Below are positions 743 through 57,830 of a stretch of DNA of 64,000 nucleotides, in pieces. The notes below the pieces were generated by a model that ran no database searches, was not told the DNA's origin, and saw only the letters and a program-made list of their open reading frames with translations. Position numbers and translations under genes: made by a program. The stretch comes from Octopus vulgaris (Eukaryota). Within the stretch, counting starts at the first letter, position 1. Each line of letters opens with the position of its first letter. The stretch spans positions 22,196,001 to 22,260,000 of the forward strand of contig OX597831.1 of assembly GCA_951406725.2 (NCBI GenBank), given 5' to 3'.

Positions 743-1007
743 ATGTGTCTGTATGTGCATAAAAGTAATTGAGCAAGCTTCATATGTCACAATACCAAGC
801 ACTCAATATAATGAATATAGATTTAATTTTGCAACCATAGAAACTAATGAAACCACATTATTATTGTGACGTATGCATATATACACAACCCTTTGTTTTT
901 CTCTCTTCACTCTTGTTCCACTCCCAATTTTTTTCTCTTTCAGTTTCACTGTTCACCATCACAATGTATTAAATATCTGTGTCTGTCTCTCTTTCTAACA
1001 ATACCAG

Positions 1008-1124
1008 TTCCTGTAGCCAAGGAGGTGCCCGAGCCGGAACCTGAACAGCCAGCAGAAACAGAGGAAGAGTTCTCTCCCCAAGACAAAGGGATGTGTGTGA
1101 GGGCGTTGTATGACTATCAAGCAG
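1008..1124 (+). CDS. DBNL: Penultimate coding exon of drebrin-like/Abp1 protein (acidic Pro/Glu linker and start of SH3)
   Basis: Pyrimidine tract and CCAG acceptor at 1004-1007 (alternative TAG at 1014-1016). Encodes PVAKEVPEPEPEQPAETEEEFSPQDKGMCVRALYDYQA. Phase-1 donor G|GTTGGT at 1124/1125. ALYDYQA is the SH3 signature. Confidence 0.88.
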
Positions 1125-1509
1125 GTTGGTCTTTTCCTCTCAACTCCCTCTCTTCCTATCTCTCTCTCTCTCTCCTTCCCTCTGTATATGTGTGTGTGAG
1201 TATACACAACAGTCACACACACACACACACATATGAGAAACAGTGTGAGAGGATGAAAACAGCTGTTAGACCTATCTATAAATATTCTAAAAATCTACAC
1301 AGCCTTGGTTTTTTTTTATCTCATTACGAAAAAATACTTTTATATACACACGCTGACATATGACCAACGTTGAACCCTTTATTCGCATAGTCACCAAATC
1401 TGGAACTTAACTATGTTCTATCTATAGCACTTATTCAGCATTACCCGATACCTTTGTGTCTCAACAACACCATTACCTCTCATAACCTCCATATATATAT
1501 ATCATCATC

Positions 1510-7089: not shown

Positions 7090-7967
7090 GTTGTTTGTTG
7101 TTGAGTTCAAATCCCATCAGGGGTCGACTTTGCCTTTCATCTTCCAGGGGTCTTCTACTGGCGCCAGTATAATCATCAGTTCCTAACCTCAAAATTTCTG
7201 GCCTTGTTCCTCTGTAAGGAATCATCATCATCATTATTATTATTTTATTATTTTATTATTATGATGAAGGTACTGAGCTGATTGAATCGTGTGTCAGAAA
7301 AAAAATGCCTTGTATTTTTCCCCAGACCTTTATATTCTGAGTTCAAATCCTGTCAAAGTCAGCTTCACCTTTCATCCCTCTGGCACTCTGGAGCCGATAA
7401 AATAAAGCACCCAACAAATACTGGGCTTGATGCAGTCCACTTGCTCCTACCTTCCCTCCAAAAATTTCAAGCCCTTTTGCTTCTAGTAGAAAGAATCCTT
7501 CTTCTTATTATTATTAAGGTGGTGTGAGCTGGCAGAATTGTTAGCACACCAGGCAAAATGCTGCTGAGCGTTTTGCCCATCTTTGCGTCCCATGTTCAAA
7601 TTATGCCGAGGATTGACTTCACCTTTCACCCTTTTTACTCTCAATAAGTACTAGTTGGGTACTGGGGTCAATGGAATTGACTTACCCCTTCCCTCGAGAC
7701 CGCTGGCTTTATGCCAAAATTTGAAATCATGAATATTATTATTATTATTATTAACATGCAAGCAGTGGGCTAGCAGAATCATTAAAATTTTAGGGGAAAA
7801 ATGCTTTATGGCATTCATTCTGGGTTCAAATTCTACTGGGGTCAACTATGCCTATTATACTTTTGGGGTCCGATGAAATGAAGTACCAGTCAAATACTGG
7901 GAATAATGGTATTAAAGAACCCTCTTCCACTCAAAATTAATGGGTTTTTATGCCTAAATCAGAAATG

Positions 7968-7999
<32 letters not shown>

Positions 8000-9225
8000 C
8001 ATTATTATTATTATTATTAAGGTGTTAAGCTGGCAGCATTGTTAGCACGCCCGATGAAATGCTTGGTGGTATTTTACTTGTCTGCCGTTATGTTCTGAGT
8101 TCAAATTCCACCGAGGTCAACTTTGCCTTTCATCCTTTCGGGGTCGATGAAATAAGTACAGTTACGCACTGGGGTCGATATGATCGATTTAATCGTTTGT
8201 CTGTCCTTGTTCGTCCTCTCTGTGTTTAGCCCCTTGTGGGTAGTAAAGAAATAGGTATTTTACCTGTTGCTGCATTCTGAGTTCAAATACCACCAAGGTC
8301 GATTTTTGCCTTTCATCCTTTTGGAGTTGATAAATTAAGTACCAGTGAAACACTGGGGTTGATGGAATTGACTTATCCCTTCCTCCAAAATGGCTGCTCT
8401 TGTGGCAAAATTTGAAATTATTATTATTACTATTATTATTATCATTATTAGGGTGTTGGATTGACAGATTCATAAATAAAAGCATTGAACAAAATGCTTT
8501 GTGTCCTCATATCACGATCATTACGATCACTTTCAACTGCCTTTTTGTAGGTCATTTCTGGTGGTTTATCTTATTTTGAGTTCAATTCCTACCTAGACCA
8601 ACTTGACCATTTTTCTTTCCAGGGTTAATAAGATAAAGTACTAGTCTAGTACTTGACTGATATAATCGACTACTGCCTCCCTGCAAACTTCTGGCTTTGT
8701 GCCTATATAAAAAAATTATTGCTATTTTTATGGTGATGGGGTGATGGAATATGTAGAACGTCGCTTAAAATACTTGATGTTTAGTTACATCTGTTTATAC
8801 TCTAAGCTCTAACCCTTCTGGGTTGACTATGCTTTTAAATTTTTAGAGTTGGTAAATCATAGAACCAGTCAATTATTGGGATTGATATAATCAACTTTAT
8901 TCTTCAACTTTTAACCTCTAAAAAAAAAAAAAAACTTTGGGACTTTGTGCCCCATGTTAGAAACAGGTTATCATCATTACTATGGCGGCAAGCTAGCAGA
9001 AACATTAGCACGCTGGGCGAAATGCTTAGGAGTATTTCGTCTGTCTTTACATTCTGGGTTCAAATTACGCCGAGGTCGACTTTGCCTTTTATCCTTTAAG
9101 GGTCGATAAATTAAGTACCAGTTGCATTCTGGGGTCGATCTAATCGACTGCCCCCCCCCCCCTTCCCTCAAAATTTCAAGCCTTGTGCATAGAGTAAAAA
9201 ACGAATATTATTATTAATATTATTA

Positions 9226-9259
<34 letters not shown>

Positions 9260-9700
9260 GGTGGTGAGCTGGCAGAATCATTAGCATGCTGGGCAAAATG
9301 CTAAGTGGCATTATTTTGTCTCTCTTCATGCTCTGGGTTCAAATTCCACCGAGGTCGACTTTGCCTTTCATCCTTTCGGGGGGTTGATAAATTCAAGTAC
9401 CACTTCCACACTGGGGTCAGTGTAATTAACTAAGTCTCCTCCCCAACAAAATTTCAGACTTAGTAACCTTTAGTAGAAAGGATTATCATTATTAATTAAA
9501 GGTGGTGATCTGTCAGAATTTGTTAGAAGCTGGACAAAATGCTTAGCAGTAATTCTTTCTGCGTTCGACTTCCACCAAGGTCATCTTTCATCCTTTCGGG
9601 GTCAATAAAACCAGTACCAGCTGTTAACTGGGGTTGATATAATCACAATCAACTAGTTCCTTCCCCACAGATATTTCAAGCCTTCTGCCTATTCTAGAAA
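7090..9700 (+). mobile_element. Array of more than ten co-oriented SINE-B copies separated by (TTA)n
   Basis: Recurrent GAGTTCAAAT..CTTTCATCC..AAGTACCAG..CTGGGGT modules, all on the + strand. Confidence 0.85.
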
Positions 9701-28695: not shown

Positions 28696-28942
28696 CTATT
28701 ATATATTTTAGTAACGTTAACTGGTTTTGTAGGTTATGCTTTACCGTCGAAGTCAAATGTCATTTGGTTTCGGTGGTTTCTTATGACGGTGAGGTTTTGG
28801 TTTATTGGATTTGTGGAGGATTTTCTGTTGATAATGCTACTACTTTGAGTCTATTTTCTCGTTTTCATTTTTTTATTTCCGTCTACGATTGTAGGTTTAG
28901 TAATTTTACAATATGTGATCAGCAATTTTACAATATGTGAAA

Positions 28943-29173
28943 GGCGGCGAGCTGGCAGAAACGTTAGCACGCCGGGCGAAATGCGTAGCCGTATTTCGTC
29001 TGCCGTTACGTTCTGAGTTCAAATTCCGCCGAGGTCGACTTTGCCTTTCATCCTTTCGGGGTCGATTAAATAAGTACCAGTTACACACTGGGGACGATAT
29101 AATCGACTTAATCCGTTTGCCTGTCCTTGTTCGTCTCCTCTGTGTTTAGCCCCTTGTGAGCAGTAAAGAAATA
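28943..29173 (+). mobile_element. SINE family B, full length
   Basis: Consensus head to AAAGAAATAG tail. Confidence 0.9.
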
Positions 29174-29511
29174 GTTTTAACACATCATGATACACATCTT
29201 TCGTGTCCCACCCAGGCGTGGTCTCAGGAATTTTTCGAAGGGAGGGCACAAATTCAGAAGTGAATACAATTCCAGGAGAAAAGGGCGCAATAACATTATT
29301 TAGAAGGTTGCAGTTATTTTCTTGAGGGGGTGAACGTACCCCTCAGCCCCACCCCCTTTTTGGGTCCGCTCCTACCACCGAGCACAAATCCTTTTGTATG
29401 TAACACAATTTTTAATCTTCGGATTTTTTAAAAATATGCTAAGCCACTGGTTTTAATTGATTAATATCAATTTCTACCCTTATTATTTAATTTCATATAT
29501 ACACATATCGC

Positions 29512-29584
29512 GCCCGGCTAGCTCAGTCGGTAGAGCACGAGACTCTTAATCTCGGGGTCGTGGGTTCGAGCCCCACGCTGGGCG
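29512..29584 (+). tRNA. tRNA-Lys (anticodon CTT)
   Basis: 73-nt GCCCGGCTAGCTCAGTCGGTAGAGCACGAGACT-CTT-AATCTCGGGGTCGTGGGTTCGAGCCCCACGCTGGGCG. All four stems pair, A and B boxes are intact, and a T5 Pol III terminator lies at 29590-29594. Confidence 0.97.
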
Positions 29585-29600
29585 TATTCTTTTTCTGTTG

Positions 29601-29665
<65 letters not shown>

Positions 29666-29681
29666 CATACATATATATATA

Positions 29682-29792
29682 TCGATTAAATAAGTACCAG
29701 TTACACACTGGGGCGATATAATCGACTTAATCCGTTTGTCTCTCCTTGTTTGTCCTCTCTGCGTTTAGCTCCTTGTGGGTAGTAAAGAAATA
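29682..29792 (+). mobile_element. 3' half of SINE family B
   Basis: Begins TCGATTAAATAAGTACCAG directly after (TA)n. Confidence 0.85.
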
Positions 29793-29929
29793 AAAAAATA
29801 TGTGATCAGCATAAAAGGATACAGCAGGCTTTCTGACAACGCCCGCACTCCAAAATCCACACGCATACCTTTGGACTGGGCCTTAAGCTCAATTCAGACG
29901 GTGATATGAAGCTGCTGGAGACTGTGGTT

Positions 29930-30448
29930 TTAAACCTTCGTTTTAATTCCCCCGAGGTCAATTTTGGCTTTCATTATTTCGGGGTCGATAAAATAAGTAC
30001 CAATTGAGTACTGGGGTAGATGTAATCGTGTAAACCCCACCCCCAGAACTGCTGGCCTTGTGCCAAAATTTGAAACCAAAGGCAGTGAGCTGGCAGAATC
30101 GTAAGCACGCCGGGCGAAATGCTTAGCGTTATTTTGTCCGTTTCCATGTTCTCAGTTCAAATTCCGCCGAGCTCGACTTTGCCTTTCATCATTTTGGGGT
30201 CATTAAAATAAATACCAGTTGAGTACTGGGGTCGATGTAATCGACTATGCCCCTCCTCTAAATTTCAGGCCTTTGTGCCTATAATAGTAAGGATTCTTCT
30301 TCTTCTTCTTCTTCTTCTTCTTCTTCTTCTTCTTCTTCTTCTTCTTCTTCTTCTTCTTCTTCTTCTCCTCCTCCTCCTCCTCCTCCTCCTCCTCCTCCTC
30401 CTTCTTCTTCTTCTTTTTCTTCTTCTTCTTCTTCTTCTTCTTCTTCTT

Positions 30449-30534
<86 letters not shown>

Positions 30535-31930
30535 GTCGAGGTAGCAGGTTCTTTAAAAATTCTATTGGTGTCTAAATTTAAAACATTATCTAAGATAAAA
30601 ATAAGATTTTAGTTTATGATAGCTGTAACCTGTAGGTACAAATTAAACATTTATGGTACATGTGATAATAGTTCAGCCATCTTGACATAAACTACCCTGA
30701 AAATTAATGAATTTGTATGTAGGTTTCTGGTTTAAATACAAGGCCAGTAATTTTGAGAGAAGGGGTTAGTCTATGCCACCGACTCCAATGCTTGACTGGT
30801 TCTTCATAATTAACCATCGTGAAGGGAGGAAAAACAAAGGTGACTTCGGTGGGATTTGAACTCAGTGTGTAAACAATAAGAACAAATTCCACAAAATATT
30901 TTTTCCGACGCCCTAACGATTCTCCCAGCTTGCTGGTTTTAATATTAGTAGGAATTGAACTTAGAATGTAAACGTAATAAATTCTGCAAGACACTTTTTC
31001 TGACGCTCTAACGTGTCTTATTTCTTTACTGCCCACAAGGGGCTACACACAGAGGGGACAGTTATTCATATTAATAGCGTACAGCAATACCTACAAATGG
31101 CACATTTCAAAACAGCTATTCATATTATTACAACAACAACAACAATAACTATAGGGATTTTTTTTCTGCTCAATGCACAAGGCCTAAAATTTAGTGAGGA
31201 GAGACGAGTCGTGTTCTTTGATCCCAGAGCGCGAATGAAACTGAATTTATCGACCCCACGAAGGATGAAAGGTAAAGTCGATTTCGGCGGTACTTGAACT
31301 CAAAGTAAAACCGGAAGAAATGCCGCTAAGCATTTTGTCCGGCGCGCTAACAATTCTTGTTTCTTTATCATTTCTTTACTGCACAAAGGGCTACATACAG
31401 AGTGGACAAACAAACGGACTAAGTCGATTATATCGACCCCAGTGCGTAACTGGTACTTATTTAATCGACCCCGATAGGATGAAAGGCAAATCGACCTCGG
31501 CGGAATTTGAACTCAGAACGTAGCGGCAGACGAAATACCTATTTCTTTACTACCCACAAGGGACTAAGCACAGAGGGGACAAACAGGGACAGACAGACAG
31601 ATGGATTAAGTCAATTATATCGACCCCAGTGCGAAACTGGTACTTAATTTATCGACCCCAAAAGGATGAAAGTCGACCTCGGCGGAATTTGAACTCAGAA
31701 CGCAAAGACAGACGAAATACCGCTAAGCATTTCGCCCGGCGTGCTAATGTTTCTGCCAGCTCGATGCTCTAACGTTTCTAACATTCAGAAACTCTTAACC
31801 TCGGTGGAATTTGAACTTAGAATTTAAAAGATCGGAAAAAATAATACAATTCTAGCGCTTTAACATTTCTTCCAGCTCGCTAACTTTGATCTCATTGAGA
31901 TTCGAAATCAGAATGTAAAGAGTAAGAATA
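29930..31930. mobile_element. SINE-B cluster: + copies at 29930-30295, - copies at 30720-31930
   Basis: Multiple complete and partial B modules, including head-less tandem units at 31370-31760. Confidence 0.8.
30295..30533. repeat. Compound (TTC)n(CTC)n(TTA)n microsatellite
   Basis: Seen directly. Confidence 0.95.
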
Positions 31931-52825: not shown

Positions 52826-53090
52826 TTATTTCTTTACTGCCCACAAGGGGCTACACACGGAGGGGACAAACAAGGAGAGACAAACGGATTAAGTCGATTA
52901 TATCGACCCCAGTACGTAACTGGTACTTATTTAATCGACCCCGAAAGGATGAAAGGCAAAGTCGACCTCGGCGGAATTTGAACTCAGAACGTAGCGGCAG
53001 ACGAAATACCTATTTCTTTATTACCCACAAGGGGTTAAACACAGAGGGGACAAACAAGGACAGACATAGGTATTAAGTCGATTACATCCG
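52826..53090 (-). mobile_element. Tandem head-less SINE-B units
   Basis: Junction GAAATACC-TATTTCTTT at about 53003-53019. Confidence 0.8.
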
Positions 53091-55789: not shown

Positions 55790-57830
55790 CTGCTAAAAGT
55801 ACATGGCCTGAAATTTAGGGAGAAGGGGCACGTGTCGTGTACTTTGATCCCAGAGCGCGAATGGAATTGAATTTATCGACCCCACGAAGGATGAATGGTA
55901 AAGTCGATTTCGGTAGTATTAAAACCGGAAGAAATGCCGCTAAGCATTTTGTCCGGCGCGCTAACAATTCTACCAACCCGTTGCTTTAATAATAATAATC
56001 CTTTCTACTGTAGGTACAAGGCCTGAAATTTGGGGAGAGGGGACTAATCGATTACATTGACTTCATTGTTTCACTGGTACTTAATTTATTGACCCCGAAA
56101 GGATAAAAGGCGGAGTCGACCTCGGAGGGATTTGAAATCAGAACGTAAGGACGAACGAAAGGTCGTTAAGAATTTCGCCCGGCGTGCTAACAATTCTGCC
56201 AGCCCACCGCCAATAATAATAATAATGATAATAATCTTTTCTACTCTAGGATCGAAATATTTGGGGAGGGGGCCAGTCAATTAGATCGATCCCAGTACGC
56301 AACTGGTACTTAAGTTGTCGACCCCGAAAGGATGAAAAGTAAAGTCGACCTCGGCGGAATTTGAACTCAGAACGTAAAGACAGACGAGATACCGCTAAGC
56401 GTTTCGCCCGACGTGCTAACGTTTCTGCCAGCTCGCCGCCTTCCGATTCTAACGATTCTGCCAGAATAATAATACATTCCGTTTGAGTATTACATCACTT
56501 CCGCTATTTTTTCAACGCATACGCAGAAAAAAAACTGATACCGAAAAATTTATGGTAATCACGATCAAATCTGGGGTATTGTTGCTATTGTTATTAATAG
56601 AGTGATGGTAAAATGGTTTGTAGCATTCATTGCAGTTCTTTATGCTCAGAGATCGAATCCCATGGAGGTCAACTTTGCCTTTAATCTCCTTGGAGTTGAC
56701 AAAATAAAGCACCAATCAAGTACTGGGTAGAATTTAATCAACAAACCCACTTTCTCTTTCAAGTCCTGTGCCTGTATTTGAAACAGCTGTTAAAGAGTGA
56801 ACAATTGATAGAATTGTTAAAGACTAAAAAACAAAAAGATTCACCGTAATTATAGAGCATCTCTTTACGTTTTGAGTTCAAATACCACCGAGGTCAGCTT
56901 GGCTTTTCATCCTTTGAGGTTAATAAAATAAAGTATCAAACAAGTATCGGGGTCGATATAATTGACTTACCTCAAATCTTAAATTGGCATTGAATTAAAA
57001 ATAACAATTGTTATTATTATTTGTTGTAGTATAAGCATTGGTAGTGTTAATTTAATTATTAAGCGGTGAAAGCGGCGAGCTAGCAGAAACGTTAGCACGC
57101 CGGGCAAAATGTTTAGCGGTATTTCGTCTGCCGCTACGTTCTAAGTTCAAATTCCGCTGAGATCGACTTTGCCCTTCATCCTTTCGGGGTCGATTAAATA
57201 AGTACCAGTTGCACACTGGGGTTGATACAATCTATTTAATCCGTTTGTCTGTCCTTGTTTGTCCTCTCTGTGTTTAGCCCCTTGTGGGTAGTAAAGAAAT
57301 AGGTATTTCGTCTGCCGCTACGTTCTGAGTTCAAATTCCACCGAGAGCGACTTTGCCTTTTATCCTTTCGGGATCGATAATTAAGTACCAGTTACGCACT
57401 GGAGTCGATGTAATCGACTTAATCCGTTTGTCTGTCCTTGTTTGTCCTCTCTGGGTTTAGCCCAAGTGGGTAGTAAAGAAATAGGTATTTCGTCTGTCTT
57501 TATGTTCTGAGTTCAAATTCCACCGAGGTCGACTTTGCCTTTCATTCTTTCGGGGTCGACAAATTAAGCACCAGTTGCGAAAAGGAGTCGATCTAATCAA
57601 CTGGCCCCTCCCCAAAAATTTATTGTGCCTAGAGTAGTAAAGATTTACTAAAGCGGTAAGTAGAATCGCTGGCGTAGCGAACAAAATGCTTAATGGTATT
57701 TCTTCCGACTCATTACGTTCTGAGTTCTAACTCCACAGAAGTCAACTTCACCTTTTATCCTTTGGAGTCGATAAAATAAGTACCAGCCTTCCCACCCAAA
57801 ATTTCAAGCCTTGTGCTAAAATTCGAAACC
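55790..57830. mobile_element. SINE-B cluster: - copies at 55790-56470, + copies at 56600-57830 including a trimer at 57070-57620
   Basis: Repeated B modules; tandem junctions AAAGAAATA-GGTATTTCGTCTG at about 57300 and 57482. Confidence 0.85.

What the first reader, a model, noticed from the sequence alone, without database searches (positions are those of the whole stretch)
28932..29805. Intact tRNA-Lys gene carried inside a TSD-bounded SINE-B composite
Seen: AATATGTGA lies directly before the SINE-B head (28932-28940) and directly after a second, head-less B tail (29797-29805). Removing the insert restores a local tandem repeat (..CAATATGTGATCAGCA), and the first B tail (29173) is not followed by this repeat. 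The enclosed 860 bp is B, about 340 bp of other DNA, tRNA-Lys, (TA)n and a B 3' half. Inference: a break in a resident SINE was repaired by copying from another B copy plus its downstream flank, moving a functional tRNA gene. Internal T-runs argue against a single Pol III transcript.
Basis: partly seen in the sequence, partly recalled or inferred. Interest (0 to 1): 0.7.

Follow-up and report, generated by a model that had tools for sequence, protein, structure and literature searches.

The report
tRNA gene copied into broken SINE
An intact lysine tRNA gene and about 340 bases of its upstream DNA sit inside a short jumping repeat (SINE) and match a second locus 7 million bases away on the same contig, likely because a break at the repeat's own insertion hot spot was patched by copying from that look-alike locus, a DNA-level route that would move whole tRNA genes; whether this copy is expressed is untested.

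Summary
Observation confirmed; the predicted donor exists. L002, 7.0 Mb away on the same contig, matches 648/686 nt from inside the SINE through the flank and tRNA into (TA)n. Only these two loci carry tRNA variant C67; 32 of 32 other complete copies have T. The first SINE's tail is donor-type; its front and the head-less half look like one resident copy, with positions 122 to at least 138 duplicated. The right junction (122/123) is the commonest second-strand cut of a hot spot where this SINE inserts into itself (336 junctions). Best reading (0.6): an endonuclease cut in a resident SINE was repaired by one-sided copying of donor DNA, then end-joining at (TA)n. Rivals: an antisense RNA template, a fork switch, or one double-switch retrotransposition; simpler pre-tRNA/SINE chimeras are common here. 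No single-SINE or empty allele was seen (inconclusive). Expression is untested. None of 30 sampled similar junctions was a clear second case. Closest known: repair-mediated duplications (PMC2671141). The scan has no note on this DNA; it noted the hot spot and the chimeras elsewhere in this genome, and a local SINE capture in another genome.

The parts
28699..28909 (+). Decayed cytochrome-b-like NUMT, left flank of the target site
   Evidence: 72-81% identical to L094-L098; L094 translates to Pfam cytochrome b; the window piece itself has no Pfam hit
28903..28940 (+). 22-nt local tandem repeat across the NUMT/old-repeat joint; holds the left copy of the alternative 15-nt TSD (28910-28924)
   Evidence: sequence; origin at the SINE insertion is inference
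28932..28940 (+). Left TSD copy, 9-nt reading
   Evidence: null 3 of 2164
28941..29094 (+). B1 front (family positions 1-154), resident type: 45G/50C subfamily head; lacks donor 66C/78C/109G; 145A and non-T at 154 shared with B2
29062..29078 (+). Self-insertion hot spot of the SINE (positions 122-138), repeated at 29682-29698
29095..29131 (+). Inferred resident-to-donor switch zone (positions 155-191); could be as early as 139 if 145A and 154 are repeat hits or later conversion
   Evidence: 145A in 664 of 8550 subfamily copies
29132..29173 (+). B1 tail, donor type (192C, 196T, 219A, 221C; 0 differences from donor in 42 nt)
29174..29511 (+). Captured donor flank, made of fragments of two other repeat families (about 29208-29373 and 29392-29508); 11 substitutions in 323 columns and 3 indels against donor
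29512..29584 (+). Intact tRNA-Lys(CTT), identical to donor; private T67C turns a G6-U67 wobble into G6-C67
29585..29600 (+). 3' trailer with T5 run (29590-29594), a predicted Pol III terminator; identical to donor
29601..29682 (+). (TA)n, where donor homology ends; joined to B position 122/123 with 1 nt of microhomology; junction unique in G000
29682..29796 (+). B2: resident-type 3' half (positions 122-233) plus A run
29797..29811 (+). Right TSD copy (9 nt to 29805, or 15 nt to 29811)
   Evidence: X1 record 8
29801..29928 (+). Old interspersed repeat fragment, right flank
   Evidence: 39 other matches listed, the six examined 75-81% identical; family not named by any search

Best explanation
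A resident SINE was likely cut at its family's own insertion hot spot, and the broken left end likely copied about 550-590 bases of DNA (SINE tail, flank, tRNA-Lys gene, TA repeat) from the matching locus 7 Mb away before likely rejoining the resident's 3' half. SHOWN: the donor exists and shares private letters; B1 is a resident/donor recombinant; positions 122 to at least 138 are duplicated; the right junction equals the commonest second cut of the hot spot. INFERRED, in order: (1) the partner LINE's endonuclease nicked the top strand after 138 and the bottom strand before 122/123, leaving 3' overhangs; (2) the left end was first extended on resident sequence (sister chromatid or own strand) past 154; (3) it invaded the donor SINE by homology; (4) synthesis ran into (TA)n and was released; (5) it was end-joined with 1 nt of microhomology. 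The outer TSD dates from the SINE's own earlier insertion. The moved gene keeps its internal promoter, 340 nt of upstream context and terminator, so it could be transcribed (untested).
For: Donor: 648/686 nt, starting inside the SINE and ending in (TA)n; 96/96 over tRNA and trailer; unrelated DNA beyond. C67 only in window and donor, T in 32 of 32 other complete rows (3 cut rows dropped). B1 shares 192C/196T/219A/221C with the donor (1, 2, 0 and 2 of about 29 unbiased copies) but not 66C/78C/109G; the donor has no head. B1 and B2 share 145A (7.8% of the subfamily), and both depart from T at 154 (T in 29 of 30). Hot spot: 336 inverse SINE-tail junctions in positions 131-158, 95 of 100 listed exactly after 138; the host resumes at 121-130 in 27 of 41 junctions examined, 12 of them at 122/123 (6 long hits dropped as neighbouring tandem units, 8 unresolved). 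Same contig: 3% of the genome; within 7 Mb, 0.5%. Nine internal T-runs and the missing donor head exclude a single Pol III transcript.
Against: No single-SINE or empty allele seen: one search was swamped by family contigs, and no reads were laid on the left half. B1's head has 0 differences from its subfamily consensus against 2-13 in 24 sampled copies, so the resident cannot be shown to be older than the capture. RT template switches onto other RNAs are common in this genome (L055 and others; unreviewed notes). In PMC2671141, 17 of 29 inspected interchromosomal duplications bore retrotransposition marks. The hot-spot match was found post hoc. Resident letters beyond 138 need an extra step. 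The donor carries about 9 of 11 flank substitutions (P 0.02-0.07), which is unexplained. None of 30 loci sampled from 137 with a 122 junction was a clear second capture.
Confidence: 0.6

Rival explanations
1. Same endonuclease cut in the resident SINE, but the template was RNA: the top-strand 3' end annealed to a minus-strand transcript running through the donor, and reverse transcriptase copied SINE tail, flank, tRNA and (TA)n.
For: Gives the same product and uses the strand geometry of the 336 inverse insertions. An unreviewed note reports a 2.15-kb edited RNA copied into this genome (e1-8823581).
Against: Predicts donor letters from 139, but B1 has resident-type 145A and 154. No A-to-G run on either strand: one T>C private to B1. 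No host gene was established around the donor (inconclusive). The same-contig donor favours DNA.
Confidence: 0.15
2. Replication-fork template switching without an endonuclease: the nascent strand stalled in the resident SINE (hairpin at positions 120-168, or a lesion at 154), jumped to the donor SINE, and came back at 122.
For: The DNA hairpin folds at -11.9 kcal/mol, z -3.0 and brackets both breakpoints. T>A in B1 and a 1-nt loss in B2 at the same base would fit one lost adenine copied twice (inference from the A-rule, recalled).
Against: The return point equals the endonuclease's second cut, which then would be coincidence (about 1-2% by position, post hoc). T154A also occurs in another copy (L205).
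Confidence: 0.12
3. One retrotransposition event with two template switches, and no resident SINE: RT began on a SINE RNA, jumped at 122 to a long donor transcript, then back to SINE RNA.
For: One TSD bounds the whole; the head looks young; pre-tRNA/SINE chimeras exist, and a triple chimera is noted (e1-8866642, unreviewed).
Against: Needs a rare long transcript ending in (UA)n and a second SINE RNA also carrying 145A (7.8%). The chimeras seen here join at the oligo-T end of pre-tRNA, not about 85 nt beyond it, and carry only short leaders. The junction at the hot-spot cut would be chance.
Confidence: 0.08
4. A circle excised from the donor ((TA)n joined to SINE position 122) integrated by crossover into the resident SINE; or unrelated insertions with a chance TSD.
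For: A circle would also duplicate part of the SINE around the insert.
Against: Predicts donor letters in one of the two copies of 122-x, but both have non-donor 145 and 154. A chance TSD is 3 of 2164.
Confidence: 0.05

Closest known systems
Repair-mediated duplications (RDs), Pace et al. 2009, PMC2671141 (read: parts 1-3 of 8, section 15, passages)
   Same: An insert interrupts a transposable element; one other copy in the genome; intrachromosomal; no poly(A/T) on the insert; microhomology plus a target duplication (their MH+TSD class, 3 of 39); size near their upper range (max 619 bp for proximal cases).
   Different: The left junction is long SINE-to-SINE homology, not 2-9 nt. The duplication is 17 to 70 nt (theirs 4-21). 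The cargo is a whole Pol III gene ('tRNA' has 0 hits in their main text). Invertebrate genome; the break maps to an endonuclease hot spot.
Small-RNA/retroelement chimeras, including tRNA/LINE-1 (bioRxiv 10.1101/2025.02.02.635956: abstract and section 21 read; U6 chimeras PMC4476161: search listing only)
   Same: A tRNA and a retroelement 3' part inside one TSD.
   Different: Those carry RNA-sized pieces (mostly tRNA halves, mostly antisense, in LINE-1). Here 338 nt of non-transcribed upstream DNA, a donor SINE tail and about 85 nt beyond the terminator came along, and a SINE head lies in front.
One-sided invasion / SDSA-like duplication guided by repeats (Fiston-Lavier et al. 2007 seen only as cited in PMC2671141, not held; experimental one-sided invasion recalled, no call)
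   Same: One homologous junction in a repeat, one end-joined junction, and flank of the donor repeat copied.
   Different: Short (under 0.6 kb), and tied here to a retroelement self-target site.
tRNA gene turnover and seeding of new loci (PMC4981973, passages)
   Same: New non-local tRNA copies arise continually; many become pseudogenes.
   Different: The passages seen assume tandem duplication or retroposition-like insertion; here a donor and breakpoints are resolved for one copy.

Membership tests
Repair-mediated duplication (Pace 2009) | Insert of 50 bp or more interrupting a TE | tested here: met
   B positions 1-x and 122-233 flank the insert inside one TSD
Repair-mediated duplication (Pace 2009) | Exactly one other, parental copy | tested here: met
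   Only L002 covers the whole 426 nt among 40 scored of 2755 candidates; counts are lower bounds. Parent direction inferred from the TSD.
Repair-mediated duplication (Pace 2009) | Repair marks at breakpoints and no poly(A/T) on the insert | tested here: met
   1-nt microhomology at (TA)n/122 (below their 2-9 nt), SINE homology on the left, target duplication, no poly(A/T)
Repair-mediated duplication (Pace 2009) | Donor within 5 kb (their confident class) | tested here: not met
   7.0 Mb on the same contig; works like an RD but falls in their 'distant' group
Repair-mediated duplication (Pace 2009) | Orthologous site with the uninterrupted TE | tested here: inconclusive
   runs X2, X7, X21 show low depth at 29810-29839 only, and what lies to the left was not listed
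pre-tRNA/SINE template-switch chimera | 5' end at the pre-tRNA leader and 3' join at the oligo-U end | tested here: not met
   338 nt of upstream donor DNA copied; join about 85 nt past the T5 run
3' transduction by a SINE transcript | Source element with its own head, read-through without terminators, poly(A) after the flank | tested here: not met
   Donor SINE is head-less; eight T4+ runs in the donor stretch; the flank is followed by a SINE half, not a tail
Functional tRNA-Lys(CTT) gene | Full cloverleaf, A/B boxes, terminator | tested here: met
   72/73 identical to the majority copy
Functional tRNA-Lys(CTT) gene | Transcribed, processed and charged; under constraint | tested here: inconclusive
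   Expression not tested. 0 differences from donor in 73 nt (P 0.08; Fisher 0.23) or 117 nt (P 0.017, post hoc) against 11/323 in the flank
Octopus tRNA-derived SINEs (Ohshima and Okada 1994) | Match to a published consensus | not testable with these tools
   Paper seen only as a reference; SINEBase supplements not readable. The octopus label is recalled and echoed by unreviewed notes.

The most novel reading that the evidence does not exclude
This is one visible product of a recurrent pathway. The LINE endonuclease keeps cutting this SINE at its own internal hot spot, every such end has thousands of homologous donors, and failed insertions are healed by copying another SINE's 3' flank. This DNA-level mimic of 3' transduction would shuffle flanking DNA and seed complete, expressible tRNA genes with their native context.
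Probability: 0.25. Interest if true: 0.65.

Novelty: new variant of a known kind. Interest (0 to 1): 0.42.

Why it matters
tRNA genes are known to seed new loci continually, but donor and breakpoints are rarely resolved. Here both are, and the copy keeps its upstream DNA and terminator, unlike the RNA-made chimeras common in the same genome. The break coincides with a sharp self-insertion site inside a very abundant SINE, which links retrotransposon cutting to repeat-guided DNA capture and gives a simple genome-wide search signature (SINE 1-x, foreign DNA, SINE from 121-130, one outer TSD). The private C67 variant makes expression of the two loci testable by tRNA-seq. As it stands it is one event in a multi-copy tRNA family (at least 34 copies seen), with no sign of consequence.

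Tried and rejected
Public runs: one search listed 24. laid 29670-29960 on X1, X2, X7, X21; family contigs swamped it, so no allele could be read. The left half and the tRNA have no read support, so the donor's private letters and alternative alleles stay unverified. A DNA search with the B1 head returned nothing because its words are too common. The pattern counts meant to test 122 as a break hot spot (137, 110) were confounded by internal deletions and internal tandem duplications, so they were not used as a rate. Of 30 loci, 3 were inverse nested insertions, 1 (L155) looked like a local duplication, many were small internal deletions or changes and a few 5'-truncated halves; none was a clear second capture. 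B2 as an independent truncated insertion into (TA)n: rejected, because what follows it is the target repeat, not the donor's flank, and the junction is unique. Reverse direction (window as parent): disfavoured, because old repeat fragments would have had to assemble inside a pristine SINE; the mutation asymmetry keeps it open. An open-frame scan of about 59 kb around the donor identified no host gene. Literature: 9 searches listed no report of this locus or of SINE-guided tRNA capture in octopus; subscription papers are not searched. PMC12704002 passages gave nothing on mechanism. The supplements of PMC3531059 could not be read and may hold the SINE consensus.

Full report
1. Observation. AATATGTGA flanks the composite at 28932-28940 and 29797-29805 and occurs only once more in the window, at 28910. 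B1 is a full 233-nt SINE, and B2 is family positions 122-233 plus an A run. The tRNA-Lys(CTT) is complete and (TA)n runs 29601-29682. In 2164 mismatched head/tail pairs only 3 reached 8 nt, and of 42 tails only B2 matches B1's head beyond 5 nt. The local tandem repeat spans the joint between a decayed cytochrome-b NUMT and an old repeat, so it is younger than that joint. It may be a by-product of the SINE insertion, in which case the TSD is 15 nt. Other copies show exact TSDs of 8-17 nt (8 of 18), so either reading fits. One contig of run X1 carries the SINE tail/TSD/right-flank junction with no differences; X1 may be the assembly's own sample.

2. The donor. Searching G000 with 29175-29600 gave one other full-length match among 40 scored candidates: L002 at C18:29.24 Mb, 7.0 Mb from the window on the same contig. 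The alignment is 648/686 nt, from inside the SINE to inside (TA)n. Beyond it the donor has unrelated DNA: a head-less tandem SINE preceded by an A/T-run satellite-like block, and other sequence after (TA)n. tRNA plus trailer are 96/96 identical. Of 37 distinct tRNA-Lys rows in the fetched loci, 3 were cut and dropped, 32 have T at 67, and only window and donor have C. The donor gene itself looks like a dispersed copy: it shares only a 5-nt leader and a 20-nt trailer with L033/L034 and sits in a TA tract.

3. Who gave what. B1's head equals the 45G/50C subfamily consensus (0 differences in 104 free sites, against 2-13 in 24 sampled copies) and lacks the donor's 66C, 78C and 109G. From 192 on it carries the donor's rare 192C, 196T, 219A and 221C. 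B2 has none of 192C, 196T, 219A or 221C. B1 and B2 share 145A, found in 664 of 8550 subfamily copies. Both depart from T at 154 (A in B1, lost in B2; T in 29 of 30 unbiased copies and in the donor). The simplest reading is one resident SINE whose positions 122 to x (x = 155-191) are now present twice, with donor DNA between. This disfavours a donor-derived circle. These are two sites, one of them a CpG, so x = 138 with repeat hits or later conversion is not excluded.

4. Where the break fell. The (TA)n/SINE junction is unique in G000. Among 30 of 137 loci where a 3' half starts near 122, three were inverse SINE insertions into a SINE, duplicating positions 122-138. A genome-wide pattern found 336 such inverse tail junctions within positions 131-158. 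Of the 100 listed, 95 lie exactly after 138, 2 more do so with a 1-nt upstream indel, and 3 lie elsewhere. In 41 junctions from the first 42 listed, the host resumes at 121-130 in 27 (122: 6, 123: 6, 125: 5, 126: 6, others 4); 6 long hits were dropped as neighbouring tandem units and 8 were unresolved. The composite resumes at 122/123. By the standard target-primed model (established knowledge), this site is nicked on the top strand after 138 and on the bottom strand near 122, which leaves a top-strand 3' end on the left, the end that must have copied the donor. I found this before reading unreviewed notes that describe self-nesting of SINEs in this genome. The match is post hoc.

5. Mechanism. 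Best reading (0.6): endonuclease cut in a resident SINE; brief extension on resident sequence; invasion of the donor SINE; copying of about 550-590 nt into (TA)n; end-joining with 1 nt of microhomology. The same product could come from an antisense transcript of the donor copied by reverse transcriptase (0.15), from fork template switching at the SINE's hairpin (z -3.0) or at a lesion at 154 (0.12), or from one retrotransposition with two switches and no resident (0.08). DNA-level readings together come to about 0.72. RNA switching is real in this genome: L055 is a short leader + tRNA + oligo-T fused to SINE positions 176-233 with an 11-nt TSD candidate in TA-rich DNA, and L056, L045, L051 and L058 look similar (no TSD found for L056, L045, L051). 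Those join at the oligo-T end and carry no long upstream DNA. A single Pol III read-through is excluded by the head-less donor and the T-runs.

6. Against, and unexplained. No single-SINE or empty allele was observed, and the pristine head means the resident cannot be dated before the capture. Polarised against family copies, about 9 of 11 flank substitutions and a 12-nt deletion are on the donor side (P 0.02-0.07; part of the polarisation rests on 1-2 outgroups). Local mutation rate, assembly error or an unseen third locus could explain it. No second capture was found in the 30 loci sampled.

7. Function. The gene is structurally intact, and T67C strengthens the acceptor stem. Identity to the donor over 73-117 nt against 3.4% divergence in the flank is at most a weak hint of constraint. 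Expression is untested, so 'functional' is not shown.

8. Known kinds and novelty. It works like the repair-mediated duplications of PMC2671141 (parts 1-3 of 8 and section 15 read) but fails their under-5-kb criterion and has a long-homology junction. In that paper most inspected interchromosomal cases looked retrotransposed, which tempers confidence. It is not a small-RNA chimera of the type in bioRxiv 10.1101/2025.02.02.635956 (abstract and section 21 read) and not a 3' transduction. Nine literature searches listed no report of this case; subscription journals were not searched. The organism is probably an octopus (recalled SINE likeness, not verified by a call). Verdict: real, well resolved, a new variant of a known kind; interest 0.42, and higher only if a genome-wide scan shows the pathway recurs.

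Noticed in passing
G000 genome-wide; L153, L160, L161, L179-L218: This SINE inserts inversely into itself at one base (after position 138): 336 junctions, 95 of 100 listed at that base, duplications mostly 13-17 nt. The target begins GGTA on the minus strand, like many of the family's TSDs and the start of its tandem unit.
   Followed up: yes
L055, L056, L045, L051, L058 (about position 1500 of each): Solitary tRNA-Lys(CTT) copies with a short leader and oligo-T trailer fused directly to the 3' part of a SINE; they look like pre-tRNA template-switch chimeras. L055 shares its leader with L048, L051 with a copy in L041.
   Followed up: partly
L062:950-1050 versus L033, L034: The donor tRNA gene itself appears to be a roughly 100-nt copy of an L033/L034-type gene dropped into a TA tract after another repeat, which would make the window copy the second hop.
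   Followed up: partly
L062:631-955: The donor flank carries about 9 derived substitutions and a 12-nt deletion between CAGG repeats, against 1-2 in the window copy; unexplained.
   Followed up: partly
window 28699-28909; L094-L098: Decayed cytochrome-b NUMT; several much more intact cytochrome-b NUMT-like copies exist elsewhere in G000.
   Followed up: partly
L061:about 7500-9290: About 1.8 kb of A/T-run satellite-like repeat with a few longer tandem units, abutting and truncating the donor's upstream SINE unit.
   Followed up: no
window 29057-29115: The SINE body folds into a nested hairpin (DNA -11.9 kcal/mol, z -3.0); internal tandem duplications of about 32 nt between its two GGGGTCGAT repeats recur genome-wide.
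   Followed up: no
window 851-1363: Open frame holding an acidic/proline stretch and an 'ALYDY' motif, recalled as the start of an SH3 domain (drebrin-like or cortactin-type exon); no Pfam hit at E 0.01.
   Followed up: partly
L155: SINE + 143 nt + SINE 3' half from 122, with a 25-nt flank repeated after both; looks like a local duplication, not examined further.
   Followed up: no
window 57069-57602, 31370-31763, 52827-53088: The SINE often carries tandem copies of its positions 51-233 after the tail.
   Followed up: no
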